The notes under the pieces were generated by a model, which saw only the letters and a list, made by a program, of their open reading frames with translations, was not told the DNA's origin and made no database searches. From a bacterium (GTDB lineage: Bacteria > Zhuqueibacterota > Zhuqueibacteria > Residuimicrobiales > Krinioviventaceae), in assembly GCA_963675755.2 (NCBI GenBank), contig CAXXMD010000003.1, forward strand, positions 3,136,001 through 3,200,000: a DNA stretch of 64,000 bases, written 5' to 3'. Below, piece after piece: positions 25,510 to 63,299 of the stretch (within the stretch, counting starts at the first letter, position 1; every line of letters starts with the position of its first letter). The position numbers and the translations under genes are program-made.

Positions 25510-25875
25510 TATATAGATCCCTTTTATATAGATATTCGATATATATAGGTTCAATATATATAAAAGGGGGATATATGTCAAGAGATTTTTTTATGGCAAT
25601 GAGTACCCAGTTTTTAAAATTTGTCCCCTGCATACCACACATTAATCGTAAAAATTTATGGCCAAAGTAATTATTTTAACTTTTTTTATTTTTTATAATT
25701 TTGCGTTTTTTGTGATTAGTCTATTGTAATTTATAGAGTTAGTTTGTTTTTCTCATGCATGCTATTGTGACATTAAGTTCCGAAAATGGATTTTATTCAT
25801 TTTTGGCAAAAAGAGGTAAGGTATTTGCTTGATAGCCGGTAATGAATAGTATATGAGTACCATTATTACAGGCGT

Positions 25876-33684: not shown

Positions 33685-33748
33685 GTTTGCAGTTTACGAT
33701 AATCTTTTTATTTTAGTCTTCTGGGCCAAGAAAAGTTAATGGACAATT

Positions 33749-36079
33749 TTGATGAAGCATTTTCTCAAGGTAGTATCTCTTGTTATTGGGGGCGTATGTA
33801 TACTTTTATTAATGGGCATTGCTACTTATTGGTTAAAGTATCAAAGCATTGTTAATACTGTACACAGTAATGAAACAGAAAATATTAAGCCAGGTACTCT
33901 TGGTAAATGGGTAAATACATTTATCGGTACGGGTGGATTCCCGGCCTGGGTGTGTGGATACAATTTTCCCGGAGCTACCGTGCCATTTGGCATGGTCCGT
34001 CTCAGTCCCGAAACCTCATCATTTTTTCGAAATACCAGGGGATTAAATACCTCGGGATATTATTATGGTGATAGCAAGATACTTGGTTTCAGCCATACAC
34101 GCCTTGCAGGAACAGGTGCAACTGACGGTGGACATTTCCTTATAACGCCGGTTACATGGAAGCCTGAAGAGATTGATTATACCCGGGATTTTTATTATAC
34201 TTTTTCACATGCTGACGAAACCGCATTTCCCGGTTATTATCGTGTGGCTTTGGATAATAATAATGTTATTGCCGAGTTAACCGCAACAGAGAGAACAGGA
34301 TTACACCGATATACTTTTCCTGATCAGACTAACAAGGGAATTCTTTTAAACATAACCAATACCATTGCGAAAAAACGGGCAGAGAATGGAATCGTAAATA
34401 TTGATACCGAGAGAAATGAGATTTCCGGTTCTGTCAGAACGTTTGGGTCCTTTGCCGGCAGGTATGGCGGCATTAAAGTCTATTTTGTTGCACAGTTTGG
34501 CACGCCTGTAACACATTATGGAATTTGGGATGGAAAGGTTTTTACTCCCGATCTTTCTATTGCCAATAGTGATACCTTGATTGTCTATGCGGGATTCGAT
34601 GAAAATATCAAAAAGGTGAATATCAAGGTTGGTATTTCTCATATAAGTATTGAAAACGCGCGTTTGAATCTGGAAACAGAAGCCGATAGTCTTGCTTTCG
34701 ATGAGGTTTTGCAAAGCGCAATTCAAAAGTGGGAAGAAAAACTCGATCTGATTGAAATTGAAGGCGGCAGCGATAAAGACAAAACGATTTTTTACAGCGC
34801 GCTGTATCGTTGTTTTCAAATGCCAACCATTTTTAATGATGTAAATGGCGAGTATTTCGGATTTGATAAACAGGTGCATCAGGTAACGGATTTTAACTAT
34901 TATACGGATTTATCCCTTTGGGATACGTTTAGAACTCTGCATCCTTTGTATATTTTAATTGCTAACGATTATCAACGGGATATGCTGGTATCGCTGGTGA
35001 AAATGGCTGAACAGGGTGGTGCTCTGCCGCGCTGGCCTTCAGGCAATGGTTATACCGGTTCCATGCTGGGCTCGCCCGCGGATATGGTTGTTGCGGAATC
35101 ATATCTAAAAGGAATTATGGATTTTGATGTAGAGCTTGCTTATGAAAAGATAAAGGCTGTTGCGCTTGCTCCGCGCCCCAAAGGGGCCTCTTATTCAGGC
35201 AGGAGAAGTATTGAAGGATATTTAAAATACGGTTTTTGTCCTGAAGATTTGGGTGAGCGTTCGGTCAGTCGCACGCTTGAATATGCCTGGGCGGATTATG
35301 CTATCAGTCAGTTGGCGGGTGCATTGGGTAACAAGGCGGATTCGGTTCTGTTTGCGGAACATTCCCGTTTCTATAAAAATTTGTGGAATCCCAAAACACA
35401 ATACTTTCAGTCCCGCTATAGTGATGGCAGATTTGTGAAAAAATTTAAACCTTTGCAATTGACCTATACGGACTGGGATGAAGAGTATACCCGCGGTTAC
35501 GTTGAAGGCAGTGCGTTGCAATGGCGCTGGGCAGTACCTTTTGATACAGAAGGGTTAATGTCTCTTTTTAAAAACAGGGATTATTATATATCAGAGCTTG
35601 AACACTTTTTTGAAAAGGCAAATCCGAAACTGGCAACCTGGATACCGGATTCGTATTACTGGCACGGCAACGAACCGGATATTCATGCGGCGTATTTGTT
35701 CAATGATGCCGGCAGACCGGACCTGACACAGAAATGGGTTCGATGGGTTCTGGATAACAAGTATGATGTATCCTATACGGGAATTGACGGCAATGATGAC
35801 GGCGCTACACTTTCGGCGTGGTATATTTTCAGCTCGCTTGGCATTTATCCCATTGCAGGAACCGATATTTACCAGCTTGGGGCCCCATTGTTCAAACATG
35901 CTAAACTCAGGATGGGTGATAATACCCTGACAATCATTGCGGAAAATTACGCTCCTGACAATATCTATGTCAAAGCCGTTTATTTGAATGATAAACATTT
36001 ATCGCAATTCAAAATTAAACATGCGGATATTGCCAATGGCGGGACTTTGCGATTTGTGATGAGTGAAAAGCCAGAGTAA
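33749..36079 (+). CDS. GH92 alpha-mannosidase
   Basis: VNTFIGTG, PGATVPFGMVRLSP, SLWDTFRT, SRTLEYA, HGNEPD, GNDDGATLSAWY. Confidence 0.95.
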   Translation: MMKHFLKVVSLVIGGVCILLLMGIATYWLKYQSIVNTVHSNETENIKPGTLGKWVNTFIGTGGFPAWVCGYNFPGATVPFGMVRLSPETSSFFRNTRGLNTSGYYYGDSKILGFSHTRLAGTGATDGGHFLITPVTWKPEEIDYTRDFYYTFSHADETAFPGYYRVALDNNNVIAELTATERTGLHRYTFPDQTNKGILLNITNTIAKKRAENGIVNIDTERNEISGSVRTFGSFAGRYGGIKVYFVAQFGTPVTHYGIWDGKVFTPDLSIANSDTLIVYAGFDENIKKVNIKVGISHISIENARLNLETEADSLAFDEVLQSAIQKWEEKLDLIEIEGGSDKDKTIFYSALYRCFQMPTIFNDVNGEYFGFDKQVHQVTDFNYYTDLSLWDTFRTLHPLYILIANDYQRDMLVSLVKMAEQGGALPRWPSGNGYTGSMLGSPADMVVAESYLKGIMDFDVELAYEKIKAVALAPRPKGASYSGRRSIEGYLKYGFCPEDLGERSVSRTLEYAWADYAISQLAGALGNKADSVLFAEHSRFYKNLWNPKTQYFQSRYSDGRFVKKFKPLQLTYTDWDEEYTRGYVEGSALQWRWAVPFDTEGLMSLFKNRDYYISELEHFFEKANPKLATWIPDSYYWHGNEPDIHAAYLFNDAGRPDLTQKWVRWVLDNKYDVSYTGIDGNDDGATLSAWYIFSSLGIYPIAGTDIYQLGAPLFKHAKLRMGDNTLTIIAENYAPDNIYVKAVYLNDKHLSQFKIKHADIANGGTLRFVMSEKPE

Positions 36080-49377: not shown

Positions 49378-50961
49378 ATGAAAATTTCAAGACGAACGTT
49401 TTTAGCTTCATCTACAGCAGTGTTGGGTGTTATGGCTTTTCCGGTTTGCAAGTCCAATAATGCTTCGCCTCGCAGTTACCAGGTTTGTTTATCTGTGGAT
49501 ACCATTGAGAATAATCCTGAGCTCCTTGCAACCATTGCAGATGCCGGGTGTAAGGTTGTCTGGATTGGCGCGTTTTTCTATGGATATTGGCCGGTAAGTA
49601 TAGAAAAACTGGTGAATGCCCGAAAACGTGTGAATGCAATGGGCATGGAGGCCCTGATTATCAATATTCCACTGGGGCATCCCGGTGATTCGCTGGGCTC
49701 CAAAGACGGTGATTTCCCATTAACACCTCCTATGCATTGGAAGACCGCAGTGCATTTTGACGGACATGTATATTCCGGCACCTCTTTGCACAAGCCCGCT
49801 ACTAGTGAAAATGTACAAGCCGTCAAAGAGCTAAAAGACGCTGGTTTTTCTACAATACTTTTGGATGATGATTTTCGTCTGGCTACAGGACCGGGGCAGA
49901 TTGGCGGATGTTATTGTGATTTTCATCGTGACTGGTTTTTAAATAGTAATGGATATGCTGCAAGTCGTTGGAATGAATTGCTAAATGATGCACAGCAAAG
50001 ACGGTTTACGCCTCTGTTAAGGTCATGGGTGGATTTTACTACATCTCAATTAACAGATTGTTTCAACCAACAGCAGCAAGTTATAGGAGAACAGAACCTG
50101 GGTATTATGGTAATGTATCTCGGTTCGGAAAAAGCCGGTATCGCTCTGGATGAATATACGAATGTTCCTTTCAGGGTGGGAGAGCTGATGTTTGATGATA
50201 AATCCTTTGCCCGTGTCAAGGGAAAAACCGACGAGCTTTACAGTGCGCTGTTTCATCGTCGTTTTACACAGCCAGAGCTCGCCTGGAGTGAGACCACAGC
50301 TTTTCCGCATGATAACCTCTCTGCAAAAAATGTAGCTGCCAAATTGACTGTTTCTACTATTGCAGATGTAAGGAATACCTGTTTTATGAGTGGAATGCAG
50401 CCTTATCCGATTTCATATTGGGAAACTTTGAAACCTGCAATGCAAACACAGTCTGAATTCCATTCTGTTTTGGCGGAGCACAAACCCCAGGGTCCGTTCA
50501 AACATTGGCGGGGATTGCCAGAACGATATGTAGGAAAAGACAAGCCTTTTAGTCAGTGGCTGGCTACAGGTGTTCCGTTTGAACTGTGTGACAATCTGCC
50601 GCAGGATGGATGGACCTTTTTATCCGAAGCCGATGCTGTTCATCTCACGGATCAGGAACTCGGGTCCGGCACGCGTTTTATTGCACAGCCTGCTGAGGGA
50701 TTGCACACTGAAATCGAGCAAATAAAAGAAGCATTGCCAGAGATGTTTGCGCTCAAAGCCCGGATTTTACCGCAATTAAAACAGACTCCATTTATTGTGC
50801 AGGATATTCCGGCAGTATGCGCCTGGTACCCCACAGCCAAAGCTGTGCTGGTATGGAACCTGACCGAACAGCAGCAAAGGCTTACCGTACAAATGGATGA
50901 GAAACAACACGAGCTGTTATTGGGTCCGCTGGAATCCGGATTGGTTCGGGATTTGGGATAA
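49378..50961 (+). CDS. Tat-exported hypothetical protein, possible TIM-barrel glycoside hydrolase
   Basis: SRRTFL Tat motif; LDDDFRL..GGCYCDFH; located in a CAZyme cluster. Confidence 0.6.
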   Translation: MKISRRTFLASSTAVLGVMAFPVCKSNNASPRSYQVCLSVDTIENNPELLATIADAGCKVVWIGAFFYGYWPVSIEKLVNARKRVNAMGMEALIINIPLGHPGDSLGSKDGDFPLTPPMHWKTAVHFDGHVYSGTSLHKPATSENVQAVKELKDAGFSTILLDDDFRLATGPGQIGGCYCDFHRDWFLNSNGYAASRWNELLNDAQQRRFTPLLRSWVDFTTSQLTDCFNQQQQVIGEQNLGIMVMYLGSEKAGIALDEYTNVPFRVGELMFDDKSFARVKGKTDELYSALFHRRFTQPELAWSETTAFPHDNLSAKNVAAKLTVSTIADVRNTCFMSGMQPYPISYWETLKPAMQTQSEFHSVLAEHKPQGPFKHWRGLPERYVGKDKPFSQWLATGVPFELCDNLPQDGWTFLSEADAVHLTDQELGSGTRFIAQPAEGLHTEIEQIKEALPEMFALKARILPQLKQTPFIVQDIPAVCAWYPTAKAVLVWNLTEQQQRLTVQMDEKQHELLLGPLESGLVRDLG

Positions 50962-50983
50962 AGATGATCTCGGTTTATTGAAA

Positions 50984-51010
50984 GGTTACAAGGCAGAGCC
51001 TTGTAACCAG
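50984..51010. repeat. REP-like palindrome, copy 4
   Basis: GGTTACAAGGCAGAGCCTTGTAACCAG. Confidence 0.9.
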
Positions 51011-51234
51011 TGGGGGATAGAAAATTGGGAATAGAATATTGGAAATAGTTTTCATGGTTTTGGAATTCTATTGATAAATGCTGTTAGTTTTTATATTATC
51101 CAAAAGGGAAACAGGTCTTTTATTATTAAAAGTAAAAATTTTATTTTTCGGGGCGACTCACGGGGACTCGGTGATGTACCGGGTGAGACCAAAACTGATA
51201 TTTAATCAACTGAAATAAATATTGAGAGGGGTAT

Positions 51235-52314
51235 ATGCATAGGAATCTGTACTTGATCATTTTATTTGTATTTGCGGTATCAATACTATGTAAACGAATA
51301 CCCACATTGCCGGAAACAGAGCCGGAACCCGGCAGCAGAAATTATATATGGGAACTGGATACTCTGAACTCACCCATGAATTACATAAGTTCAGTTTGGG
51401 GTGCGTCTCCAATGGATGTATGGGCTGTTGGCGGGGGTGGTACCTATAAAGACAGGTTATGGCATTATGATGGTGTTGAGTGGTCTATTTATAATAAAGA
51501 AGCTATAAATGTAGGGGGTATGACCCTTTGGGGCACAGGTCCGAACAATGTTTGGATGGGCGGACAGGGCGGTTGGGGAGTAGAGGGGGCTGCGATCTGG
51601 CATTTTAATGGCAAAGAATGGAGCCAGTTCTATAATTATAAAGTTGATGGCGCTTATATAATTTCTATTGAAAAAATTTGGGGAACATCTGCCAACGATG
51701 TTTATGCTTGTGGAATAATTGATTTTAAAAAAGAGACAATTGATAACTGGCGTGGCTTTGTATTGCATTTTGATGGTAAAAAGTGGAAAGAAATTGTACG
51801 AGCAACCTTTAATTCTCAATTTTTAAAAATAAGGAAAAATGATAATAAAGTCATTGTACAATCTTATGCAATGGATTATGAAAGCAGCGCTCAAGATATA
51901 ATAGCATTTTATCAAATAAGTGATAATAAACTTGATGAAATTTATTCAACAACGCTTAAAGATGTTTATTGGGCCAGTCTTCATGTTATTGATGGAATAA
52001 CCTATTTTGTTGTTGGGGAGGAGATATATTCATATCAAGGAGCAAAGATGATTGAGCAATTTACAATGCCAAATTCTGAATTTAATTGTCAGATATATGG
52101 CAGAAACAAGCTTGATCTTTTTCTTAGTATGAAAGATGGCATTGCGCATTATAATGGTACTGATATTGAGTATTTATATAGATACCCTTATGAACAAATG
52201 GGAAATAATAATGATCCTATGATTTTCAAAAATGAAATATTTTTTTGTGTGTCGAACCCTTACGGGACACCGGAAAATAGTAATTTAATTTTACATGGCA
52301 AGATTTTAAAATAA
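51235..52314 (+). CDS. Exported beta-propeller-like protein (WGxSxxDVWAVG repeats), copy A
   Basis: Signal peptide ending in Cys (possible lipoprotein); repeats WGASPMDVWAVG, WGTGPNNVWMGG and WGTSANDVYACG with HF/YDG..W. Confidence 0.8.
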   Translation: MHRNLYLIILFVFAVSILCKRIPTLPETEPEPGSRNYIWELDTLNSPMNYISSVWGASPMDVWAVGGGGTYKDRLWHYDGVEWSIYNKEAINVGGMTLWGTGPNNVWMGGQGGWGVEGAAIWHFNGKEWSQFYNYKVDGAYIISIEKIWGTSANDVYACGIIDFKKETIDNWRGFVLHFDGKKWKEIVRATFNSQFLKIRKNDNKVIVQSYAMDYESSAQDIIAFYQISDNKLDEIYSTTLKDVYWASLHVIDGITYFVVGEEIYSYQGAKMIEQFTMPNSEFNCQIYGRNKLDLFLSMKDGIAHYNGTDIEYLYRYPYEQMGNNNDPMIFKNEIFFCVSNPYGTPENSNLILHGKILK

Positions 52315-52472
52315 GGAGAATACTGCTAAACCATAAGAATAATTAATCGGAGACAGCGATTGCGGCGCTGTCTCCTGAATTTAGAACAGCACTCTCAGGC
52401 TGGCGCCCTAATACTTTATCGCAATCCTTTTTTATGTATCGCGGGATATGGGGTAGGGGACTTTTGGGGATA

Positions 52473-52499
52473 GGTTACAAGGCAGAGCCTTGTAAACAG
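52473..52499. repeat. REP-like palindrome, copy 5 (one mismatch)
   Basis: GGTTACAAGGCAGAGCCTTGTAAACAG. Confidence 0.88.
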
Positions 52500-52650
52500 T
52501 GGGGACCTTGTTTGGGGCAAGATTGGGATGGACAAATCAAAGCCCATATCAGGATTTGTAGAGTGTTTTGATAGGGGTTTACAGTTTTTACGTCTATGAT
52601 TAAATATTTTTAGTGTTTTCGTTTTTTTTTTGCGAGTTTTGCGATATTAC

Positions 52651-52679
52651 TTGACAGTGACTAATTCTTTTTGTATTAT
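52651..52679 (+). promoter_or_regulatory. Sigma-70 promoter of copy B
   Basis: TTGACA-17 bp-TATTAT. The counterpart TTGATA-17-TATTAT at 51071-51099 precedes copy A. Confidence 0.7.
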
Positions 52680-52814
52680 CCAAAAGGGAAGCAAGTCTTT
52701 TATTATTAGAAGTAAAAATTTCAATTTTCGGGGCGACTCACGGCGACTCGGTGATGTACCGGGTGAGACCAAAACTGATATTTAATCAACTGAAATAAAT
52801 ATTGAGAGGGGTAT

Positions 52815-53894
52815 ATGCATAGGAATCTGTACTTGATCATTTTATTTGTATTTGCGGTATCAATAGTATGTAAACGAATACCCACATTACCGGAAACAGA
52901 GCCGGAACCCGGCAGCAGAAATTATATATGGGAACTGGATACTCTGAACTCACCCATGAATTATTTCAATTCAATTTGGGGCGCGTCCCCAAATGATGTC
53001 TGGGCAGTAGGTGGGGCAGGTACCTATAAAGACCGGTTGTGGCATTTTAACGGCAATGAATGGTCGGTTTATAATAAAGAAGCAATTAATGTTTGTGGTG
53101 TTACCCTTTGGGGCACTGGTCCGAACAATGTTTGGATGGGCGGACAGGGCGGTTGGGGAGTTGGAGGTGGCGCAATCTGGCATTATAATGGTGATAAATG
53201 GGAACAGTACTATCATTGCCAGATTGAAAATGCATATTCAATTGAAGTTAGAGATATCTGGGGTATCGCCTCGAATAATGTTTATGCTTGTGGTACGATT
53301 AGTTTCTTTGATGGTACCAATGAAAAATGGAGAGGATTTGTGTTACATTTTGATGGAAAAGAATGGAGACAAGTTGTACAGGCATCATTTAATTCGCAAT
53401 TCATGAAAATCAGGAAAAATGATAATAGTGTTATTGTACAATCTTATGCTATTGATAAAGAAAGCAGCGCTAAAGATGTAATAACATTTTATCAAATAAA
53501 AAATAATGATCTTGATGAAATATATTCAACTACCCGTGAAAATATTGACTGGGCAAGCCTTCATGTTATTGATGGAATAACCTATTTTGTGATTGGAGAA
53601 GATATTTATTCTTTTTCAAGTGGAAACATTGAAAAACAGTTTACAATTCCATTTGAAGAATTTGAATGTCAGATATTTGGTCGTACTAAACTTGATATCT
53701 TTGTTAGTATGAAGGATGGTATTGCTCATTATAATGGAGAAGATATTGAATATTTGTATTATTATCCAGGTGAACGGATGTCAGAAGTAAATGATCCATT
53801 AATTTTTAAAAATGAAGTATTTTTTGTTGTGTTAAATTTTAACGGAAATGTAAATGAAACAAATTTAATTTTACATGGCAAGATTTTAAAATAA
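52815..53894 (+). CDS. Exported beta-propeller-like protein, copy B
   Basis: Same length (359 aa) and colinear with copy A. Confidence 0.8.
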   Translation: MHRNLYLIILFVFAVSIVCKRIPTLPETEPEPGSRNYIWELDTLNSPMNYFNSIWGASPNDVWAVGGAGTYKDRLWHFNGNEWSVYNKEAINVCGVTLWGTGPNNVWMGGQGGWGVGGGAIWHYNGDKWEQYYHCQIENAYSIEVRDIWGIASNNVYACGTISFFDGTNEKWRGFVLHFDGKEWRQVVQASFNSQFMKIRKNDNSVIVQSYAIDKESSAKDVITFYQIKNNDLDEIYSTTRENIDWASLHVIDGITYFVIGEDIYSFSSGNIEKQFTIPFEEFECQIFGRTKLDIFVSMKDGIAHYNGEDIEYLYYYPGERMSEVNDPLIFKNEVFFVVLNFNGNVNETNLILHGKILK

Positions 53895-54058
53895 GGAGAA
53901 TACTGCTAAACCATAAGAATAATTAATCGGAGACAGCGATTGCGGCGCTGTCTCCTGAATTTAGAACAGCACTCTCAGGCTGGCGCCCTAATAGACAGTT
54001 TTTAAAAAACTGCATGGGCTGTTCTATGGAAATATAATAATTTTTTCAAAAAAGGAAA

Positions 54059-56789
54059 ATGATTATGAGAAAAATTTGTTTATTTTTTTTACTGCTAATG
54101 ATGTTTGGAAATGTATTTTCACAAACTCTCTACAGATCAATAACCAGACAACCATCATCAATCGAATGTATTCTAAAGTATTATCCACCAAATGGTGGTT
54201 GGACATCATATGATGGTGCTTCTTATCATATTGGTAATGTAACTTTTCCTAATGTTGATGATCCAGAGGAAGATGATATTTATCTATATAGGTCATACTT
54301 TGTATTTAACGTTAGTTCAATACCAGATAATGCTACAATTACTCAAGTTGAGGTGGTTTATTCAACAGGTGATAATGGTGATTATACCTTCAGACTTACA
54401 AATATTCCTTCCGTTGAAGGGATTCGGTCCGAAGATTGGGGGCCAATTGGTTCTAGTACTATCCTTGAAGATGAGCTGGATTATGGGAGTGATAGTTTTT
54501 ATTCGACAAATTTTAAGAATGCAGTGACTGTTGCTTTAGAGAGTAATAATCTAATCATTGGTGCTTTATCAGAAGATGAATGGACACATGGTTCATTGAC
54601 TACTTTAAGTTTAAGTTTGAATATTGATTATTCTTATCCTGCTGATGCGGTTGATATTATAGTAAAAAATGATCTATACGGTGCAACGGGCGGAAACGTT
54701 GGCGTAGCGATTTATCCGAATTCACTGGTTTCCCATTCCAGTCCCTATTCATTTACCGCTTATGAAGAAGATAGGTTGAATTTGGCAGCTTATGACAACC
54801 AAAGCGTTAGCGGTAAAACCTGGTTTTTTAATGATACGGAATATGGTGTAGAGAATAGTGTGTGGAGAAAATATTCAAACGGAAGTTATTCGACAATAGC
54901 TAATACTGCAAATCTAACAACTAATCAATTAACTACAAGTGATGATGACGCTAATTTTATTGCTTATTTGAAATCATCAACTTATACAACTAGTGGAACA
55001 TTGTCTTATGATGAAATTTGGTTTACTTCTTTTACTTTGGAGGACGATGTTTTTGTGCCTGATGGAAAAACACTCACTATTGCCAGTGGTACAAGCATCA
55101 CTCTTGATGATTGTTTTATAAAGTGTCAGGGGACAGGGCGAATTGTAAATAATGGAACAGTTTCATCAGGTATTTCTGTTAAAGATGGTTCAACAATAAA
55201 AGGTTATTATTATACTGTTGGTGACGCAATGACAAATGCGCTTACCGGGCAATCAGTGTATTTGTCTTTCAGGTAGTTATTCCGGTTGGATCAGCATGAG
55301 AAGTGGAATTGATGTTATAGGATCAGGATCAACAAGTACGTATGTTGGGCAGGTTGCCTTTAATAGTCAAACGAATTGTGAACTCAAAAACCTCAATACT
55401 TCTAATCTGGATATCTCTGGTGGCAACTCTACTACCAAAGTGACCAATGTTCGAACCAACTATCGAATTGAGCTCAATAATAGCAGCGCGTTTTTAAGCA
55501 ATGTAACGTTTTTACAAGGGGATTATTATCCTGGAATAGATGTTAATGATGGCAATCCTGTACTGTATAATATAACTTCAACAACCACCCGATCAAGTTC
55601 CGGAGACCCGGCTGTTTATCTTCATGGAGGAGCAAGTCCCAATATTTATGTTGGTTCAATCCGTAATAAGAATAGAGGTATTCAGATCGGTAGTTCCTGC
55701 TATGCAACAACAGATGCTGATTTTTGTTCAAATACCTGGGACATGTACGCCCTTAGTGGTGCCTGGGATTCTGATATAGATGGTTATTTCAGTGCTCAGG
55801 ACCCTGAGGATTGTTTATATTATCCAAGTGGTGATCTGGAAGATTATTATGAGATAGGAAGTTGGAATTACTGCGGTGCTGGTGTTGCGAAACATGAAAC
55901 TGGTGACAAGATCGAGTCAATGGTTGGTGGTAGTATAACAGATAAAGGATTAAAAGGGGCGTTCAAGGAGTATAACAATATCCGTAAAATTATGATAAAT
56001 GATGCCAAGACCGGAAACATGGACCCCAAATTATATGAGACAGAGTTTGAAGCATTGCTCACAACATTTGCGGATTACGCTCAAACCGGTGATGAGAAAA
56101 ACAGTCCACTTGCCTTAAAGTTATATCAGAATATCTGTTTTGATCTTGAAAAACCGGAACAGTTCTTGTCGTTACTGAATAAGGTAAAAACTGATAACAA
56201 GAGCGAAGCATTGGCCCCGCATCTCGCACATCTAACTATTTCGTATTACAGTTATTTAAATGATGTGAAAAGTGCCTTGATCGAGACAGAAATGTTTGGT
56301 AAGAATTTTCCAAAATCTGATCTGTTGGTAGAAGTTTTGTATAACAAGGGTGTATTGTACCGTTTTGGTTTAGAGGATTGCGACAACGCCGCTAAAGCCT
56401 ATTCGGAAGTGATTGAGCGTTTCCCTGACCACCCTACAGCTGAATCTGCAAGAGCATCACTTGAGCGTTTGGGTGTTTCGAAACCGGAAACGGAAGAGGA
56501 AAGTATTGAACCTATTAAATTAGCATTGGGTAACTTTCCTAATCCATTTAATCCAACCACAGAAATTCATTTTTCATTGCCAGAAACCGGCTTTGTAAGC
56601 ATCAAGGTTTTTGATGTAATGGGGCGTCTGGTTACAACGTTGGTAAGGGCAAATATGAACGCGGGCGCGCACCAGGTGATCTGGAACAGCCGGGACCAGT
56701 ATGGTAATACCGTAGCGTCTGGCATGTATTTTTATCGTATGCAATACCAGGACCAGACCCTAACTCAAAAAATGGTACTTATGAGGTAA
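54059..56789 (+). pseudogene. Large secreted protein (DNRLRE-like, beta-helix, TPR, FlgD-Ig) split by a +1 frameshift near 55267-55269
   Basis: ORF 54059-55276 has the signal peptide but no sorting domain; ORF 55236-56789 has the sorting domain but no signal peptide. Removing one T from TCTTTCAGG gives ...GQSVYLSSGSYSG.... Confidence 0.75.
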
Positions 56790-58597: not shown

Positions 58598-58613
58598 TGG
58601 TACGCTGTTTGCA
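58598..58613 (+). promoter_or_regulatory. Sigma-54 (-24/-12) promoter
   Basis: TGGTACG-CTGT-TTGCA, one mismatch from the consensus TGGCACG-N4-TTGCA, about 100 bp upstream of the start codon. Confidence 0.75.
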
Positions 58614-58714
58614 GTCGTGTTCCAAAAATCGGCAGATGCCGTTTAAAAGTTACAAGACTATGAAAAACAGTGGATTATATATCTGCTGAATTCACTAAAA
58701 ACCTGGAGTTTAAA

Positions 58715-60019
58715 GTGAAACAACACATTGCAGGATTTTTAATTTTACTGATGGGATTATTTGTACTGTTTTCCTGTACAAAGAAATATCCCGACCAAAC
58801 CCAGATGGATTTGGCAATTGGTGGAGATGGGTGTACCAGCTGTCATATGAATACCGATCTGTTAAAGGAGGTAGCTACCCCTCAGGAAGATACCGAGGGT
58901 GATGCGGGCGAAGGCTGAGGCGGGGAAGTGGCTCCGTTGGAGACATGGCAGATGGTTTCAATTAAAGAATCTTTTCTAAGTACCTCACATGGTAAACTGG
59001 GCTGTACAGCTTGTCACTTTGGTAATGCCAAAGCAAAGACAAAAGAAGAAGCCCACGTAGACGACTTTGTTGCAAGTCCCAGTATGCAGCCGGATGTATA
59101 TTGTGAAGGTTGTCATGCTGAAATTACCAATGATCATAATGGTAGTTTGCACAAAAATCTCGATGGATATTACAAACGTATTGAAAAGCGCCTGGGTTAT
59201 GATATTTCAGGTGATGAAATGATTGTTGGCGAATTCAATAAAGAATGCGGCAAGTGTCATGCTAGCTGCGGACAGTGTCACGTTTCCCGACCTGTATCCG
59301 TTAAAGGTGGTTTCCTGGATGGACACACCTTCCAGCGTGAACCGACCATGAAAGACAATTGTACAGCATGTCATGGCAGTCGTGTTGGCGCCGAATTCTT
59401 TGGTGAGAATGAAGGCATGAGAGCAGACGTTCATTGGATCCCCAATGTAAAACGTTGTGTTTTCTGTCACGATGGCAATTCTATGCATAGTTCAACGGAT
59501 GGTGCAACCCACCGCTATGAAGACCAGGATATGACCCGTTGTGAAGACTGCCATATGGATGACAAAGAAGCTAATGAATATCATCTTACGCACTGGAAAG
59601 ATGACGGCGGATTGTCATGCCAGGTTTGTCATTCTCAGGACTATAAGAACTGTAATAGCTGCCATACCGGTGGCGCGGGAATTACCGGCAGTTCGTATAT
59701 GGATTTCAAGATTGCCAAGAACCCGATCAAGACAGATTACCGGAACTATGATGTTGTAACGGTACGTCATATTCCAATTTCTCGTGATACCTATACAAGC
59801 TGGGGTATTACTGACTTGCCGAATTACAATGTTGAACCCACCTGGAAATATGCAACACCGCATAATATTCAGCGTTGGACAGCTCGTACAGATACAACCG
59901 GTAGTACAGCTTGTTATGAAAAGTGTCATAATTCAGATTATTACCTGACGCTTGAAGACTTGTTTGAAGAAGAAGTTGATGCAAACAAGGATTACGTATT
60001 AACACGAAATGATAACTAG
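58715..60019 (+). CDS. Multiheme c-type cytochrome lipoprotein, probable selenoprotein (UGA=Sec at codon 68); 10 CxxCH + 1 CxxxCH
   Basis: ORFs 58670-58918 and 58928-60019 share a frame and are separated only by TGA-GGC-GGG-GAA. GTG at 58715 has a GGAG RBS and lipobox LFSC. A SECIS-like hairpin follows the TGA. Confidence 0.85.
58928..58946 (+). promoter_or_regulatory. Putative bacterial SECIS element
   Basis: GUG-G-CUCC-[GUU]-GGAG-A-CAU hairpin. The apical loop starts with GU, 17 nt after the UGA. Confidence 0.65.
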
Positions 60020-60055: not shown

Positions 60056-61060
60056 ATGTTAAAGAGAACACTTTTATTGTTACTGGGTTTGTCACTGGTC
60101 TTGTTCCTGTTTGGTTGTAGCGATGATGATGACAGTCCTGCTGAAACCGAAACTGTAGATGAATTTAGTTTAATGACAGATGTTGGTGATGTATATTTTA
60201 CAGATTATACCACAACCGGTGGCAATGCTGTGAATGTTTCTATTTCTGCTGTATTCCCGATTTTGGCTGATGGCGATGCATCAAATGATCCATTGATCCT
60301 TGATTATCGTTCAGCTGCTGACTATGCAACCGGTCACTTGACAGGTGCTATCAATATTTCATTGGGAAGTTTGATGGATAAAATTGAAGATGGTACCATA
60401 ACCAAAGACAAGACCGTTTTGAACGTGTGTTATACCGGTCAAACCGCAAGTTTTGCTACCAGTATTTTGAATCTGTTGGGTTATGAAGCAGAAAACCTAC
60501 TTTATGGTATGTGTGGTGTTACTACAGATGCTTCTGTCAATGGTACTGACAAATGGAGCTCTCAGGTTGCATCTGATGAATTTGCAGCGCAATTGGTTGC
60601 TTCTGTCTCTACTACTACTACTGAATATGATTTTCCGTCAATTTCTACAAGCCAAACAACTGCAGAAGAAGTTATTACAGAACAATTTAAATCTGTAGGT
60701 GCAAGTGGTTGGACTATTTCTGCCGGAGATGTTTTTGCTAATCCTTCCGGTTATTTTGTCATCAATTACTGGCCACAGGCTGAATACGAAGCACCGGGTC
60801 ATATTCCGGGTGCATATTGTTTCCCACCCAAATCTTCTTTGCAGAAAGCAGAAATGTTGAAACTGCTGCCTACTGACAAAACAATCGTTGTATATTGCTA
60901 TACAGGTCAAACCTCTGCTCAGGTTACTGCTTATCTGCGTATGTTGGGTTATGACGCGAAAAGCTTGTTGTATGGTGTAAATGGTTTTGCTTATAATGCA
61001 TTAGCCGGCCATAAATACTCTGCACCAGCAGACGATTACTCAGCAATTATCGTAAAATAA
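60056..61060 (+). CDS. Tandem-rhodanese (sulfurtransferase) lipoprotein
   Basis: Lipobox LFGC; two domains, each with GHxxGA and an active-site loop (CYTGQTA at 60428, CYTGQTS at 60896). Confidence 0.9.
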   Translation: MLKRTLLLLLGLSLVLFLFGCSDDDDSPAETETVDEFSLMTDVGDVYFTDYTTTGGNAVNVSISAVFPILADGDASNDPLILDYRSAADYATGHLTGAINISLGSLMDKIEDGTITKDKTVLNVCYTGQTASFATSILNLLGYEAENLLYGMCGVTTDASVNGTDKWSSQVASDEFAAQLVASVSTTTTEYDFPSISTSQTTAEEVITEQFKSVGASGWTISAGDVFANPSGYFVINYWPQAEYEAPGHIPGAYCFPPKSSLQKAEMLKLLPTDKTIVVYCYTGQTSAQVTAYLRMLGYDAKSLLYGVNGFAYNALAGHKYSAPADDYSAIIVK

Positions 61061-61070
61061 ATCCTGCAAA

Positions 61071-61120
61071 AATCCGAGACTGTGAAATTTTTTACAGTCT
61101 CGGGTTGCTTTTTTGTTTTT
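61071..61120 (+). terminator. Intra-operon hairpin/terminator
   Basis: CCGAGACTGTGA...TTACAGTCTCGG followed by T-runs. Confidence 0.7.
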
Positions 61121-61181: not shown

Positions 61182-62360
61182 ATGAAAAAAATCATTCCAA
61201 TTCTGGTGCTGTTATCAAGTATGTGCCTGCAAGCACAGGGCCTGGTATTTCACGGAAAGGTCAGGAACTCTGTTTACAGTTACGAGAGTGATGAACAGCA
61301 TAATCGGGCTTATCAGTATTTGCGTTTCAGCCTTGCAACTGCTGATAAAAAGTTCCGTATCAATTCATCTGTACGTGCGCTTACAGATTTTAACGAAACC
61401 ATAGACAGCGATCTTCGTTTCAAAGCTTATGCGTTGAATCTTGAAGCCAACGATCTTTTAGGCCGGGTAGATTTAAAGCTGGGACGCCAGTTCTTACATC
61501 CTGGAACTGTTTTAGGCGCTCTCGATGGTCTGTCTGGCTCTGTCAAGATCAATAAAATGTTTTCTGTAGAGGGTTATGCCGGAACAGAATCACATTTTGA
61601 TCGTATTTTCAAGGTCTACGAGCTGGATGACAGTTTTGTTGCCGGTGGTTTGTTTAATGTTAAAAATCTGTATTCAACCAATCTGCAGCTTTTATATTTG
61701 CATAAATCCAATGTTGATACAACCTTGTTTCAACTCGCTGGTTTAAATGTCACCAATTATACTTTGGATAAAACGCATTTTAATGTTCAGGCGCATTATG
61801 ATATGCAAAATGAACGTATGCATCGCTTGATTGCTTCTGTTCGTCAGGAGTTGTTGGGCAATATGGCGGTTAACCTCAGGTATAAAAGCCAATATCCCCA
61901 GGTTTACACAAACTCGTTTTTTTCTATTTTTTCCCCCAAGGCTTATAAACAATATCATGCAGGGCTGAGTTACGAATTTTATAAAGATTATTATATCAGT
62001 ACGCAATACCAGCTGGTCCAGTTTGATGATGGTAACGCAAACAAGGTGTTTTTTACTGTAAATGGAATGAATGCCAGTGCCGGAGTTTTATATGAAAGCG
62101 GTTACGCAGGCGATCAATTATCTCTTATGTTTGATTATGCATATGAAGTGATTGAAAATCTCTATGCGTCAATTAATCTTGATTATTCGAAATACAGAAC
62201 AGAAGAATTGTATGAATATGATAATCAATTGGCAAACGCGTTGCGCTTGAATTATCGACTCAACAAGAACTGGATCATTGATTTGGAATATCAATGGTTG
62301 AATAACAAATTTACAGAAAATGATTCCCGTTTTCTGAATCATATTACGTATAGATGGTAA
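61182..62360 (+). CDS. Outer-membrane beta-barrel (porin-like) protein
   Basis: Signal peptide from ATG at 61182; alternating amphipathic strands; KLGRQ..DGL motif; C-terminal beta-signal HITYRW. Confidence 0.8.
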   Translation: MKKIIPILVLLSSMCLQAQGLVFHGKVRNSVYSYESDEQHNRAYQYLRFSLATADKKFRINSSVRALTDFNETIDSDLRFKAYALNLEANDLLGRVDLKLGRQFLHPGTVLGALDGLSGSVKINKMFSVEGYAGTESHFDRIFKVYELDDSFVAGGLFNVKNLYSTNLQLLYLHKSNVDTTLFQLAGLNVTNYTLDKTHFNVQAHYDMQNERMHRLIASVRQELLGNMAVNLRYKSQYPQVYTNSFFSIFSPKAYKQYHAGLSYEFYKDYYISTQYQLVQFDDGNANKVFFTVNGMNASAGVLYESGYAGDQLSLMFDYAYEVIENLYASINLDYSKYRTEELYEYDNQLANALRLNYRLNKNWIIDLEYQWLNNKFTENDSRFLNHITYRW

Positions 62361-62375
62361 TTGAAGGATTTTCCA

Positions 62376-63242
62376 ATGAAATATAAAATTGGTATTTTAG
62401 CATTATTCCTGTTGGTTTCTGTTTCTTTGGGACAGAATGTAGAACTGATCTTTTCACATCAGTTCCATGCTGTAGATGTTGAGGCCGAATGTTCTGCTTG
62501 TCACGTTGCGGCTGACACCAGTACAATGGCAATGCATAATCTGCTTCCTGATATGGAGACCTGTTATACCTGTCATGATGAAGATACGGATTGTACCGTA
62601 TGTCACAAAGACCCTGACAATGCTGTCCCGTATCCGCGTATTGAGCAATATATTGCCAAGTTTCCACACGCAACACATGTGGAAAATGAGGTTGCATGCG
62701 AAACATGCCATGCCGGTGTAGCAGCAAGCAGCAATATTCTTGACAGTCATTTGCCTGATATGGGTGCATGTATGAATTGTCATACTGAACTTGAACAGCC
62801 GGACTATTGTATTACCTGCCATGCAGAATCTGAAGATTTGATGCCAGCTGACCATAAACTGGACTGGACAAAATCGCATGGATTTGCAGCACAGGCTGAT
62901 CAGGAATGTTCAATTTGTCATACAGAAGACCAGTGTCTTGATTGTCACCAGGGTGACAACCTTGATCACAAAGTGCACCCGTTGAATTTTGTCAACAATC
63001 ATGCTATCTTTGCCAAGGGCAACAAGGACAACTGTTTGACCTGTCATGAAGAACTGCTGTCATGTGTCGATTGTCATCAACAGGAACTGGTAATGCCCGC
63101 AAACCATTCCAGTGCAGGATGGTCCAACTTTACAACCGGTGGCCGCCATGCACGTGAAGCCCTTCAGGATCTCGATTCCTGTGTTAGTTGTCATAATGAC
63201 GCTGTAGGTGATCCGGTTTGTTTGACCTGTCATCAACAATAA
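62376..63242 (+). CDS. Periplasmic 12-heme cytochrome c (c3/c7-like repeats)
   Basis: Signal peptide from ATG at 62376; 12 CxxCH motifs; FSHQFH and FPHATH distal His pairs. Confidence 0.92.
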   Translation: MKYKIGILALFLLVSVSLGQNVELIFSHQFHAVDVEAECSACHVAADTSTMAMHNLLPDMETCYTCHDEDTDCTVCHKDPDNAVPYPRIEQYIAKFPHATHVENEVACETCHAGVAASSNILDSHLPDMGACMNCHTELEQPDYCITCHAESEDLMPADHKLDWTKSHGFAAQADQECSICHTEDQCLDCHQGDNLDHKVHPLNFVNNHAIFAKGNKDNCLTCHEELLSCVDCHQQELVMPANHSSAGWSNFTTGGRHAREALQDLDSCVSCHNDAVGDPVCLTCHQQ

Positions 63243-63264: not shown

Positions 63265-63299
63265 AAAGGTGCTGTAATTTTTTTACAGCACCTTTTTTT
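63265..63299. terminator. Intrinsic terminator closing the cytochrome operon
   Basis: AAAGGTGCTGTAA...TTACAGCACCTTT followed by a T-run, between convergent genes. Confidence 0.85.

What the first reader, a model, noticed from the sequence alone, without database searches (positions are those of the whole stretch)
58715..60019. Hidden selenoprotein: an 11-heme lipoprotein cytochrome c read through an in-frame UGA (GEG-U-GG)
Seen in the sequence: the 82-aa and 363-aa ORFs are in one frame, ...GAT GCG GGC GAA GGC TGA GGC GGG GAA GTG GCT CCG... (DAGEG*GGEVAPLE). The upstream part supplies the lipoprotein signal and one CxxCH. The downstream part has 9 CxxCH plus CYEKCH but no export signal. Established: c-type heme attachment occurs after export, so the downstream part makes little sense alone. 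A hairpin with a GU-starting loop lies 17 nt after the UGA, the geometry of bacterial SECIS elements. Inference: a 434-aa protein with Sec68 on an acidic Gly-rich tether between heme 1 and heme 2, not in a CxxU motif. It could act as a flexible catalytic arm or a heme ligand. The Sec-cytochrome I recall (Geobacter ExtKL) has fewer hemes, so this may be a distinct family that pipelines routinely split.
Basis: partly seen in the sequence, partly recalled or inferred. Interest (0 to 1): 0.95.

Follow-up and report, generated by a model that had tools for sequence, protein, structure and literature searches.

The report
Unannotated 11-heme selenocysteine cytochrome lipoprotein
What gene callers split into two pieces is one 434-residue, eleven-heme lipoprotein cytochrome with a selenocysteine, the founding example of a widespread family that always sits beside a sulfur-transfer (rhodanese) protein and probably reduces sulfur or selenium compounds.

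Summary
Window 58715-60019 (+) is one frame with a single in-frame TGA (58916-58918, codon 68). Read through, it gives a 434-aa lipoprotein with 10 CxxCH and 1 CxxxCH.

- **TGA conservation:** the TGA sits at the same column (G-E-G-U-G-G) in 39 of 47 loci from the window's own phylum and in 68 of 80 loci from more than ten other phyla. Cys replaces it in 2 and 10 of these.
- **SECIS:** a 5-bp hairpin starts 11 nt after the UGA, with an apical loop N-G-U/G-U-N. All 5 pairs show compensatory changes (51 double-changed cells against 14.9±2.7 in shuffles). The hairpin decays where the codon is no longer TGA (2.23 against 4.57 of 5 pairs).
- **Sec machinery:** the genome has selA, selB, selD and tRNA-Sec.
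- **Annotation:** public protein sets hold only the truncated 363-aa product.
- **Relation to ExtKL/MccSep:** it is not a member (5 hemes; its model NF040886 does not match). It shares the context of a tandem-rhodanese lipoprotein, a 22-strand outer-membrane barrel and a 12-heme periplasmic cytochrome.
- **Function (inferred):** a Sec-dependent reductase of polysulfide, sulfane sulfur or selenite. This is not shown.

I found no description of this family in the papers I could search. Interest 0.75.

The parts
58715..60019 (+). One gene: a 434-codon lipoprotein undecaheme cytochrome c with Sec68 (10 CxxCH + 1 CxxxCH), stop TAG 60017-60019
   Evidence: Homologs are full length in one frame with a single TGA.
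58699..58702 (+). GGAG ribosome-binding site, separated by 6 nt from the start GTG 58715
   Evidence: Read directly from the sequence.
58715..58777 (+). Signal peptide with lipobox LFSC. Cys21 is the lipidated residue.
   Evidence: Cys21 column: at least 90% in alignment A1 and 70 of 81 in the wider set.
58916..58918 (+). In-frame TGA = selenocysteine 68, in the motif G-E-G-U-G-G
   Evidence: TGA at this column in 39 of 47 loci and 68 of 80 loci. Cys in 2 and 10.
58928..58946 (+). SECIS-like hairpin. The core 5-bp stem is 58930-58934 with 58940-58944 and has one G.A mismatch in this genome. The apical loop is C-G-U-U-G at 58935-58939.
60056..61060 (+). Lipoprotein with two rhodanese domains, each with an active-site Cys (C125, C281)
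   Evidence: Pfam Rhodanese E 4.2e-25, 2 stretches. The cysteines are invariant in 21 sequences. A homolog is adjacent in 34 of 36 and 66 of 80 loci.
61071..61106 (+). Terminator-like hairpin (16 pairs, then a T run) between the rhodanese and barrel genes
   Evidence: pattern match only.
61182..62360 (+). Outer-membrane beta-barrel protein: 392 aa from ATG 61182 (the ORF is open from 61149), 22 predicted strands, C-terminal ...Y-R-W
   Evidence: AF2 pLDDT 79.7. Foldseek matches to outer-membrane barrels, E down to 6.7e-10. Atlas cluster named 'Porin family protein'.
62376..63242 (+). Periplasmic dodecaheme cytochrome c: signal peptide and 12 CxxCH
   Evidence: Pfam Cytochrome_C7 and MtrC/MtrF-like domain.
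63265..63295 (+). Terminator-like hairpin after the fourth gene
   Evidence: pattern match only.

Best explanation
Window 58715-60019 is a single gene for a 434-residue lipoprotein c-type cytochrome with eleven heme sites.

**Decoding (well supported).** UGA-68 is decoded as selenocysteine. SelB would be recruited by a short hairpin that starts 11 nt downstream of the UGA and carries G-U in its apical loop.

**Family and context (shown).** The protein belongs to a large, so far unannotated Sec/Cys family found in many anaerobe-rich phyla. Its constant partner is a lipoprotein with two active rhodanese domains. Here and in related lineages with an outer membrane, the pair is followed by a 22-strand outer-membrane barrel and a 12-heme periplasmic cytochrome. 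Together these form a porin-cytochrome type module.

**Function (inferred, about 50%).** The module would be a terminal reductase for chalcogen-chalcogen bonds in polysulfide or sulfane sulfur, possibly also selenite or tellurite.
1. The rhodanese picks up sulfane sulfur as a persulfide.
2. The selenolate of Sec68, on a flexible acidic Gly-rich loop, attacks it to form a Se-S adduct.
3. Electrons arrive through the 12-heme cytochrome and the eleven hemes, and release sulfide.

This parallels the Sec- and heme-dependent mechanism published for MccSep/ExtKL. It differs in that no second conserved cysteine is present.
For: **Shown**
- One frame with one TGA.
- TGA at the same column in 39 of 47 loci of the phylum, down to 39% identity, and in 68 of 80 loci from other phyla. 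Cys in 2 and 10.
- The same-genus genome (97% identity) also has TGA, so it is not a sequencing error.
- The hairpin was found independently by RNAalifold.
- On 97 distinct Sec loci, 91.3% of cells pair against 78.1% in shuffles. All 5 of 5 pairs show double changes: 51 cells against 14.9±2.7, reached by 0 of 500 shuffles. Slid controls pair at 27-59%.
- Mean pairs are 4.57 of 5 in Sec loci and 2.23 of 5 in non-Sec loci.
- The geometry fits the published bSECIS model: G in the first two loop positions and 16-37 nt from UGA to the loop (passage read in PMC13188914). Here the distance is 16 nt.
- SelB 371 bits, SelA 580 bits, SelD 377 bits with its own TGA, and tRNA-Sec 68 bits with anticodon TCA.
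- TGA ends 4 of 31 long frames in the window, so it is an ordinary stop here.
- Only the upstream piece has the export signal.
- A rhodanese gene is adjacent in 34 of 36 and 66 of 80 loci.
- Two natural cytochrome-rhodanese fusions were found among 10 long relatives scanned (P0036, P0054).
- The barrel and the 12-heme cytochrome are supported.

**Inferred**
- Ten conserved non-motif His serve eleven hemes, and no other Cys is conserved.
- MccSep is a proven Sec-dependent polysulfide and selenite reductase whose operon holds a rhodanese lipoprotein and a porin (PMC13510729 introduction, results and discussion read; passages of PMC6148476 and PMC5877670).
Against: - There is no experimental or expression evidence for this protein.
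- The window's own hairpin has a G.A mismatch in the 5-bp stem. Its folding energy is ordinary (z -0.30).
- Rfam gives no match.
- The stem nucleotides also encode conserved residues (V-x-P/Q-L-E-x-W), so part of their conservation is at the protein level.
- Five distinct homologs carry Arg, Leu, Gly or Met at the column, and two lack the loop. Sec is therefore not needed for the fold.
- The Sec loop is modelled with low confidence (mean pLDDT 61 for residues 61-70).
- I could not read model coordinates, so the distance from Sec to any heme is unknown.
- The substrate is inferred only from context and analogy. MccSep is not a homolog by HMM. ExtH's model does not match this rhodanese.
- SelA is also present in 4 of 5 genomes whose copy is not Sec-type, so the Sec/Cys state does not track the machinery.
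Confidence: 0.85

Rival explanations
1. It is a real selenoprotein, but the module is a general extracellular electron conduit (metal oxides, electrodes, humics). Sec68 would serve as an axial heme ligand or redox tuner, not as a chalcogen-bond catalyst. The rhodanese would be an accessory or unrelated.
For: - The layout is that of a porin-cytochrome conduit: a barrel, a periplasmic 12-heme cytochrome and a lipoprotein cytochrome.
- Pfam sees MtrC/MtrF-like domains in the fourth gene and in relatives.
- There are 10 conserved distal His for 11 hemes.
Against: - The invariant partner across phyla is the rhodanese (66 of 80 loci), not the barrel (16 of 80).
- Cytochrome-rhodanese fusions exist.
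- Both rhodanese catalytic cysteines are invariant.
- The two homologs without the Sec loop are also the two without an adjacent rhodanese. They belong to one genus, so this counts as one event.
Confidence: 0.2
2. It is a real selenoprotein working in the oxidative direction. It would be a sulfide, thiosulfate or sulfane-sulfur oxidase that feeds electrons into the chain, like the His/Cys-heme enzymes TsdA and SoxAX.
For: - A Sec/Cys residue sits beside multiheme centres, next to a rhodanese.
- The MccSep authors themselves relate their mechanism to the reverse of TsdA and SoxAX (discussion of PMC13510729).
Against: - Nothing in the locus indicates direction.
- The closest characterised analog works reductively.
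- The carriers' record titles are mostly anaerobic lineages. That these lineages are anaerobic is my recollection, not a call result.
Confidence: 0.12
3. The frame holds two separate genes, or a gene broken by a nonsense mutation. The upstream 67-82 aa peptide and the downstream 363-aa protein would be independent or dead.
For: - Gene callers report the 363-aa product.
- A GTG lies 3 codons after the TGA, with a purine-rich stretch before it.
Against: - The frame, spacing and TGA column are kept in more than 100 loci across phyla. Conservation runs on both sides, and Cys forms are continuous.
- The downstream piece has no export signal, although it carries 10 heme sites.
- The hairpin covaries.
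Confidence: 0.02
4. UGA is read as another residue (Trp or Gly) through a changed genetic code or leaky read-through, not as Sec.
For: None specific. One distant relative has Trp at the column (P0031).
Against: - TGA ends 4 of 31 long frames in the window.
- SelA and SelB have no internal TGA.
- The carriers span many phyla that would not share a recoding.
- Cys, not Trp or Gly, is the common replacement.
- The full Sec machinery is present.
Confidence: 0.01

Closest known systems
MccSep / ExtKL of Geobacter sulfurreducens (GSU2937-2936), NCBIfam NF040886. A periplasmic pentaheme selenoenzyme and polysulfide (and selenite) reductase. Sources: PMC13510729 (introduction, results and discussion read); passages of PMC5877670 and PMC6148476.
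   Same: - It is a multiheme c-type cytochrome with one Sec encoded by an in-frame UGA followed by a SECIS-like hairpin.
- It is routinely annotated as two ORFs.
- It has Sec-type and Cys-type members.
- Its gene neighbourhood holds a rhodanese-like lipoprotein and an outer-membrane porin-like barrel.
- Its Sec sits in a Gly-containing mobile loop.
   Different: - It is not homologous by HMM. NF040886 finds only two 35-bit matches elsewhere in this genome and none at this gene (cut-off 250), and the NCBIfam scan gives no hit.
- This protein has 11 hemes, not 5.
- Its Sec is at residue 68, near the N-terminus, in G-E-G-U-G-G. MccSep has Sec at residue 325 in D-G-U-P, on a C-terminal Ig-like domain.
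- No second conserved Cys corresponds to the heme-ligating Cys239.
- It has a lipoprotein signal, not a soluble periplasmic one.
- Its phyla differ: KSB1- and Calditrichota-labelled records, Chloroflexota and others, against mainly Desulfobacterota and Nitrospirota.
Other selenocysteine-containing cytochrome families listed in the 2026 selenoproteome review (PMC13188914, table passages read): the tetrathionate reductase family octaheme cytochrome (TIGR04315) and the GSU2204 family CXXCH protein (NF041027).
   Same: They are c-type heme proteins in which Sec occurs.
   Different: Neither model appears among the hits of this protein, even at E up to 10. HMMER's filters drop most matches above about 0.1. 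The heme number and the Sec context also differ.
Porin-cytochrome outer-membrane conduits (the MtrCAB and Pcc type).
   Same: An outer-membrane barrel, a periplasmic multiheme cytochrome and a lipoprotein multiheme cytochrome are encoded together.
   Different: - This barrel has 22 predicted strands and matches no Pfam or NCBIfam family.
- The module carries a rhodanese lipoprotein and a Sec.
- The barrel is missing from most carriers outside the neighbouring phyla (16 of 80 loci).
His/Cys-ligated heme enzymes of sulfur metabolism (TsdA, SoxAX), as cited in PMC13510729.
   Same: A chalcogen nucleophile works next to a c-type heme in sulfur-sulfur bond chemistry. Cys-type members of this family could form such a site.
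   Different: There is no sequence relationship. Ligation by residue 68 is a hypothesis only.

Membership tests
Bacterial selenoprotein (general criteria) | An in-frame UGA conserved at one column among homologs, with conservation on both sides | tested here: met
   TGA in 39 of 47 loci and 68 of 80 loci. The alignments continue on both sides.
Bacterial selenoprotein (general criteria) | Cys-containing homologs at the same column | tested here: met
   Cys in 2 of 47 and 10 of 80 loci, and in 13 of 44 full-length representatives as aligned. The tree shows two Cys clades, one nested among Sec forms.
Bacterial selenoprotein (general criteria) | A bSECIS hairpin: a small apical loop with G in its first two positions, 16-37 nt from UGA to the loop | tested here: met
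   The 5-bp stem occupies columns 15-19 and 25-29. The loop is N-G-K-U-N with G21 invariant, 16 nt after the UGA. The model criteria come from PMC13188914.
Bacterial selenoprotein (general criteria) | selA, selB, selD and tRNA-Sec in the genome | tested here: met
   all above the curated cut-offs.
Bacterial selenoprotein (general criteria) | Selenium in the protein | not testable with these tools
   This needs 75Se labelling or mass spectrometry.
MccSep / ExtKL (NF040886) | A match to the family model above its cut-off | tested here: not met
   No match at this gene. The best matches in the genome are 35 bits, elsewhere (cut-off 250). The family is also absent from the scans.
MccSep / ExtKL (NF040886) | Five conserved CxxCH and a Sec/Cys site near the C-terminus (D-G-U-P) | tested here: not met
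   There are eleven heme motifs, and Sec is at residue 68 in G-E-G-U-G-G.
MccSep / ExtKL (NF040886) | A conserved heme-ligating Cys outside the CxxCH motifs | tested here: not met
   Apart from the lipobox Cys21 and residue 68, no non-motif Cys is conserved.
MccSep / ExtKL (NF040886) | A neighbourhood with a rhodanese-like lipoprotein and an outer-membrane porin-like protein | tested here: met
   These are analogous, not orthologous: ExtH's model NF040901 gives no match in this genome.
c-type cytochrome, lipoprotein | CxxCH heme-attachment motifs together with an export signal and a lipobox Cys | tested here: met
   All heme-motif Cys and His are invariant in 81 sequences, and Cys21 is present in 70 of 81. 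Pfam Cytochrome_C7, E 5.5e-08.
Porin-cytochrome conduit | An outer-membrane beta-barrel gene beside a periplasmic and a lipoprotein multiheme cytochrome | tested here: met
   A 22-strand model that matches outer-membrane barrels, and a 12-heme protein with a signal peptide.
Porin-cytochrome conduit | The three proteins form one trans-membrane complex | not testable with these tools
   My complex-prediction request concerned the cytochrome and the rhodanese.
Octaheme tetrathionate reductase family (TIGR04315) and GSU2204 family (NF041027) | A match to the family model | tested here: not met
   Neither is among the hits at E up to 10. HMMER's filters limit weak matches.

The most novel reading that the evidence does not exclude
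Sec68 would be the distal axial ligand of the one heme that has no conserved distal histidine (10 conserved non-motif His for 11 hemes). That would be a natural His/selenocysteinate-ligated c-type heme. The same selenium atom would double as the catalytic nucleophile that accepts sulfane sulfur from the rhodanese. One residue would then do what MccSep does with two (Cys239 as ligand, Sec325 as nucleophile). To my knowledge no natural selenocysteine-ligated heme has been described; this is recalled, not searched.
Probability: 0.2. Interest if true: 0.9.

Novelty: new variant of a known kind. Interest (0 to 1): 0.75.

Why it matters
**A second multiheme selenoenzyme family.** Selenocysteine-containing multiheme cytochromes were shown to be real enzymes only in 2026 (MccSep, the missing polysulfide reductase of sulfur respiration). 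This locus shows a second, unrelated family of that kind, and a widespread one.
- 206 representative clusters match at E <= 1e-30.
- The record titles span more than ten phyla.

**It is invisible to annotation.** The N-terminal 67 residues, with the export signal, heme 1 and the Sec, are cut off. The remainder is left as an unnamed "cytochrome" without a signal peptide.

**What correcting it would change.**
- It alters the selenoproteome and the predicted sulfur and selenium respiration capacity of many uncultivated anaerobes, including KSB1- and Calditrichota-labelled lineages, Chloroflexota and Thermodesulfobacteriota.
- The fixed pairing with a tandem rhodanese gives a directly testable two-protein system.
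- The family offers a natural series of Sec, Cys and other residues at one site, useful for asking why selenium is kept.

Tried and rejected
- **Sequencing error or pseudogene:** rejected. The same-genus genome and over 100 other loci keep the TGA.
- **Genetic-code change:** rejected.
- **Membership in ExtKL/MccSep, ExtH, ExtM or ExtS, the octaheme tetrathionate reductase family, the GSU2204 family, or the 'GUxG' family NF049953:** no qualifying match. The only NCBIfam hit of the cytochrome is ExtM at 14.9 bits against a cut-off of 800.
- **Rfam:** no SECIS or other credible match in 58600-59300.
- **Solved structures:** nothing by sequence (best E 0.1). Nothing by fold for the cytochrome model (0 matches at E <= 0.001). 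This is expected for a heme-free model.
- **Sec-to-heme geometry:** the AF2 model could not be used, because coordinates are not returned.
- **Sec state against Sec machinery:** SelA is present in 5 of 5 Sec-type and 4 of 5 non-Sec-type genomes. This is uninformative. The one miss is an 86%-complete genome.
- **Sec loci that do not pair in register:** 10 were folded. Most show a hairpin shifted by a few nucleotides with a G-containing loop. None is exceptional by energy (z from -1.03 to +0.46).
- **Guessed accession:** NF040902 turned out to be an unrelated family, and I stopped guessing.
- **Literature:** searches for 'selenocysteine' or 'selenoprotein' with 'multiheme', 'multiheme cytochrome' or 'multi-heme' found only MccSep, the review and unrelated papers (PMC; bioRxiv). 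None describes an 11-heme Sec cytochrome.
- **Sources I could not see:** supplements are closed. I could not check the MccSep homolog lists (data S1, S2) or the candidate lists behind the review's references, so an earlier computational listing of this family cannot be excluded.
- **Not used:** The look-up of sequencing runs and read laying. Transcription across the TGA would not separate the readings.
Full report
**1. The observation**

On the + strand, an 82-aa ORF (58670-58918) and a 363-aa ORF (58928-60019) share one frame. They are separated by a single TGA at 58916-58918.

The best start is GTG 58715, with GGAG 6 nt upstream. Reading TGA as U gives 434 residues ending at TAG 60017-60019.
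- Residues 1-21 form a hydrophobic signal ending in the lipobox L-F-S-C21.
- Heme motif 1 (C40xxCH) lies upstream of the TGA.
- Nine CxxCH motifs and one CxxxCH (C400-Y-E-K-C-H) lie downstream.
- The downstream piece has no signal of its own.
- Sec68 sits in ...T-E-G-D-A-G-E-G-U-G-G-E-V-A-P-L-E..., an acidic, Gly-rich stretch.

**2. Is the TGA a selenocysteine codon?**

Four independent lines say yes.

(a) Sec machinery. The window's genome (6.48 Mb, 3 contigs, 98% complete) has the following, all above the curated cut-offs.

| Component | Score |
|---|---|
| SelB | 371 bits |
| SelA | 580 bits |
| SelD, itself with one in-frame TGA | 377 bits |
| tRNA-Sec | 68 bits |

ARAGORN calls the tRNA as tRNA-SeC with anticodon TCA.

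(b) Conservation of the codon. A six-frame search of 61 related genomes, and then of all 167 genomes held for the phylum, found full-length homologs in 44 genomes. Nearly all had exactly one internal TGA. I extracted 47 loci, ten of them fetched, and aligned them.

| Residue at the Sec column | Loci (of 47) | Note |
|---|---|---|
| TGA | 39 | |
| Cys | 2 | One genus, within the window's own family |
| Leu | 1 | |
| Arg | 1 | |
| Gly | 1 | |
| Absent | 3 | One contig-end fragment; two homologs that lack the loop |

Identity to the window protein runs from 97% down to 33% in the 43-sequence alignment A1.

The best 80 loci carry titles from these groups:
- candidate division KSB1
- Calditrichota
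- Thermodesulfobacteriota
- Gemmatimonadota
- Eisenbacteria
- Krumholzibacteriota
- Ignavibacteria and Bacteroidota
- Chloroflexota
- Phycisphaerae
- Marinimicrobia-type records
- Cloacimonadota

Among these 80 the column is TGA in 68, Cys in 10, Arg in 1 and Met in 1. The two sets overlap: 123 full-length rows reduce to 111 different sequences.

(c) A SECIS element. Alignments of the 48 nt starting at the TGA contain no gaps (A2 with 39 loci, A3 with 107 loci, of which 97 are distinct).
- RNAalifold on its own finds a 5-bp stem, columns 15-19 with 25-29, and a 5-nt loop.
- The stem begins 11 nt after the UGA, and the loop begins 16 nt after it.
- G21 and U23 of the loop are invariant. The commonest loops are CGUUG, AGUUG and AGUUA.
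- This matches the published bacterial SECIS model: G in one of the first two loop positions, often followed by G or U, and 16-37 nt from UGA to the loop (passage of PMC13188914).
- On A3, 91.3% of cells pair against 78.1±1.0% in shuffles.
- All five pairs show changes on both sides (G-C, C-G, A-U and U-A at pair 15/29; C-G, G-C and U-G at pair 16/28).
- That makes 51 double-changed cells against 14.9±2.7, reached by 0 of 500 shuffles. With the 3' arm slid by 1-3 columns, pairing is 27-59%.

The stem also encodes conserved residues, so I compared loci by codon state.

| Codon state | Distinct loci | Mean pairs kept (of 5) | Loci keeping 5 of 5 |
|---|---|---|---|
| TGA (Sec) | 97 | 4.57 | 78 |
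| Not TGA | 13 | 2.23 | 1 |

The hairpin is therefore maintained only where the codon is TGA. The Sec loci that fail in register have a hairpin shifted by a few nucleotides.

Two caveats apply. The window's own stem has a G.A mismatch, and its folding energy is ordinary (z -0.30). Rfam has nothing here.

(d) Biology of the two pieces. Heme attachment happens after export (established knowledge). The 363-aa piece, with ten heme sites, has no signal. TGA is a normal stop in this window, ending 4 of 31 long frames.

**3. How databases treat it**

The truncated 363-aa product of this very gene is a called, unnamed protein in public collections. A profile search of 1.84 billion representatives with A1 gave 1311 hits at E <= 0.001 and 206 at E <= 1e-30. 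By my count about 40 of the best 150 begin at profile positions 76-88 with their own residue 1-8. That is where a gene caller restarts after the TGA. Full-length representatives necessarily lack the TGA. As aligned, 13 of 44 have Cys at the column, 11 lack the loop, and the rest vary.

**4. Context**

The gene opens a four-gene block on the + strand. The block is bounded by a divergent aldolase gene upstream and a convergent SRAP gene downstream.
- **Gene 2 (60056-61060)** is a lipoprotein with two rhodanese domains. Both active-site cysteines are invariant in 21 orthologs.
- **Gene 3 (61182-62360)** matches no family. It folds as a 22-strand all-beta protein (pLDDT 79.7) that matches outer-membrane barrels (383 matches at E <= 0.001; usher pores at TMq 0.57-0.60, and porins).
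- **Gene 4 (62376-63242)** has a signal peptide and 12 CxxCH.
- **Terminators:** terminator-like hairpins follow gene 2 and gene 4.

A homolog of the rhodanese lies beside the cytochrome in 34 of 36 own-phylum loci and in 66 of 80 wider loci. The barrel is present in only 16 of 80 (flanks up to 3 kb). The two loci without a rhodanese in the first set are the two whose cytochrome lacks the Sec loop. They come from one genus, so this is one event.

Two of ten long relatives scanned are natural fusions of this cytochrome with two rhodanese domains (P0036, P0054). The conserved functional unit is therefore cytochrome plus rhodanese. The barrel and the 12-heme cytochrome are an add-on in lineages with an outer membrane.

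**5. What the Sec may do**

This section is inference. In 81 sequences all eleven heme motifs are invariant. Nine non-motif histidines are invariant, and a tenth (H352) is present in 73 of 81. No non-motif cysteine is conserved apart from the lipobox Cys21 and residue 68. At least one heme therefore lacks a conserved distal histidine.

The published analog is MccSep/ExtKL. It is a periplasmic pentaheme selenoenzyme in which Sec325 attacks polysulfide or selenite. A His/Cys-ligated heme then reduces the Se-S-S intermediate. Its operon encodes a rhodanese lipoprotein (ExtH) and a porin (ExtI) (PMC13510729 introduction, results and discussion; passages of PMC6148476 and PMC5877670).

By analogy and context I propose that the present module reduces sulfane sulfur or polysulfide, and perhaps selenite. 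The rhodanese would act as sulfur carrier and Sec68 as nucleophile. Whether Sec68 also ligates the histidine-less heme is open.

**6. Comparison with known families**

The protein is not a member of MccSep/ExtKL. NF040886 does not match it, and the heme number, the Sec position and the missing ligand Cys all differ. No other NCBIfam or Pfam family covers it beyond generic Cytochrome_C7. Neither sequence nor fold search finds a solved relative.

The 2026 review's table lists three Sec cytochrome families: ExtKL, the GSU2204 family and the octaheme tetrathionate reductase family. None is this one. Four literature searches found no description. Supplements and the candidate lists of large surveys could not be seen.

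**7. Evolution**

On a FastTree of 123 rows, with the Sec column masked, Sec forms dominate.
- Cys forms make two clades. One (100* support) is nested inside the window's own family. The other is an Ignavibacteria/Bacteroidota clade of eight.
- The Leu, Arg, Gly, Met and loop-less forms are each nested among Sec forms.
- The tree needs at least six changes of state.

The sample is biased towards relatives of Sec-type queries, so the ancestral state of the whole family is not settled.

**8. Verdict**

- Confidence that this is one selenoprotein gene: about 0.93.
- Confidence in the sulfur or selenium reductase mechanism: about 0.5.
- The overall figure of 0.85 mainly reflects the first claim.

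It is a new, widespread variant within the very recently recognised class of multiheme selenoenzymes, and it is systematically mis-annotated.

Noticed in passing
G000:C3:1425405-1426334 (outside the window; locus L010): The genome's selD gene itself has one in-frame TGA. The selenophosphate synthetase is therefore probably a selenoprotein too.
   Followed up: no
window 61071-61106: A strong terminator-like hairpin (16 pairs, then a T run) sits between the rhodanese gene and the barrel gene. The four genes may therefore form two transcription units, or be attenuated there.
   Followed up: no
L041, L042 (one genus of the same class): The two homologs whose cytochrome lacks the whole Sec loop are also the only 2 of 36 own-phylum loci with no rhodanese gene in the flank. 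Both still have the barrel gene.
   Followed up: partly
L061/L070, L062/L071, L064/L069 (three genomes of one family in the phylum): Three genomes carry two paralogs of the cytochrome (about 40% and 50% identical to the window's). In one genome, one copy has Leu at the Sec column and the other keeps TGA.
   Followed up: partly
P0036 (652 aa), P0054 (715 aa), P0031: These are natural fusions of this cytochrome family with two C-terminal rhodanese domains. P0031 has a rhodanese fragment at its N-terminus. P0036 begins right after the Sec column, so it is itself a split Sec-type gene.
   Followed up: partly
P0154 (cluster of P0008): One source names a 460-aa Cys-type member of this cytochrome family 'thiosulfate/3-mercaptopyruvate sulfurtransferase', although the protein has no rhodanese domain of its own. 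The name was probably transferred from fused forms.
   Followed up: no
L073, L075, L076, L097, L149 against own-phylum loci (tree): Several titled records hold sequences identical to loci from the window's phylum. Their titles name quite different phyla (Actinomycetota, Cytophagia, Deferribacteres, Calditrichota). The record-title taxonomy of these assembled genomes is therefore unreliable.
   Followed up: no
window 25846-33624 (+): This is a 2592-aa multidomain protein with GH31, GDSL lipase, PKD, FG-GAP and ASPIC/UnbV domains and a FlgD-Ig-like C-terminal domain. A GH92 protein follows at 33740-36079.
   Followed up: no
window 7720-10740 and 55236-56789 (+): Both proteins end in a type IX secretion C-terminal sorting domain (Por_Secre_tail). 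The organism therefore probably has a type IX secretion system.
   Followed up: no
window 49378-55276 (+): Four consecutive ORFs of 359-527 aa have no Pfam family at E <= 1e-4. Two of them are 359 aa each and may be paralogs.
   Followed up: no
G000:C2:662733-663323 and C2:783599-784150 (L153, L154): Two other loci in the genome give weak matches (35 bits, cut-off 250) to the ExtKL/MccSep model. They are probably other multiheme cytochromes.
   Followed up: no
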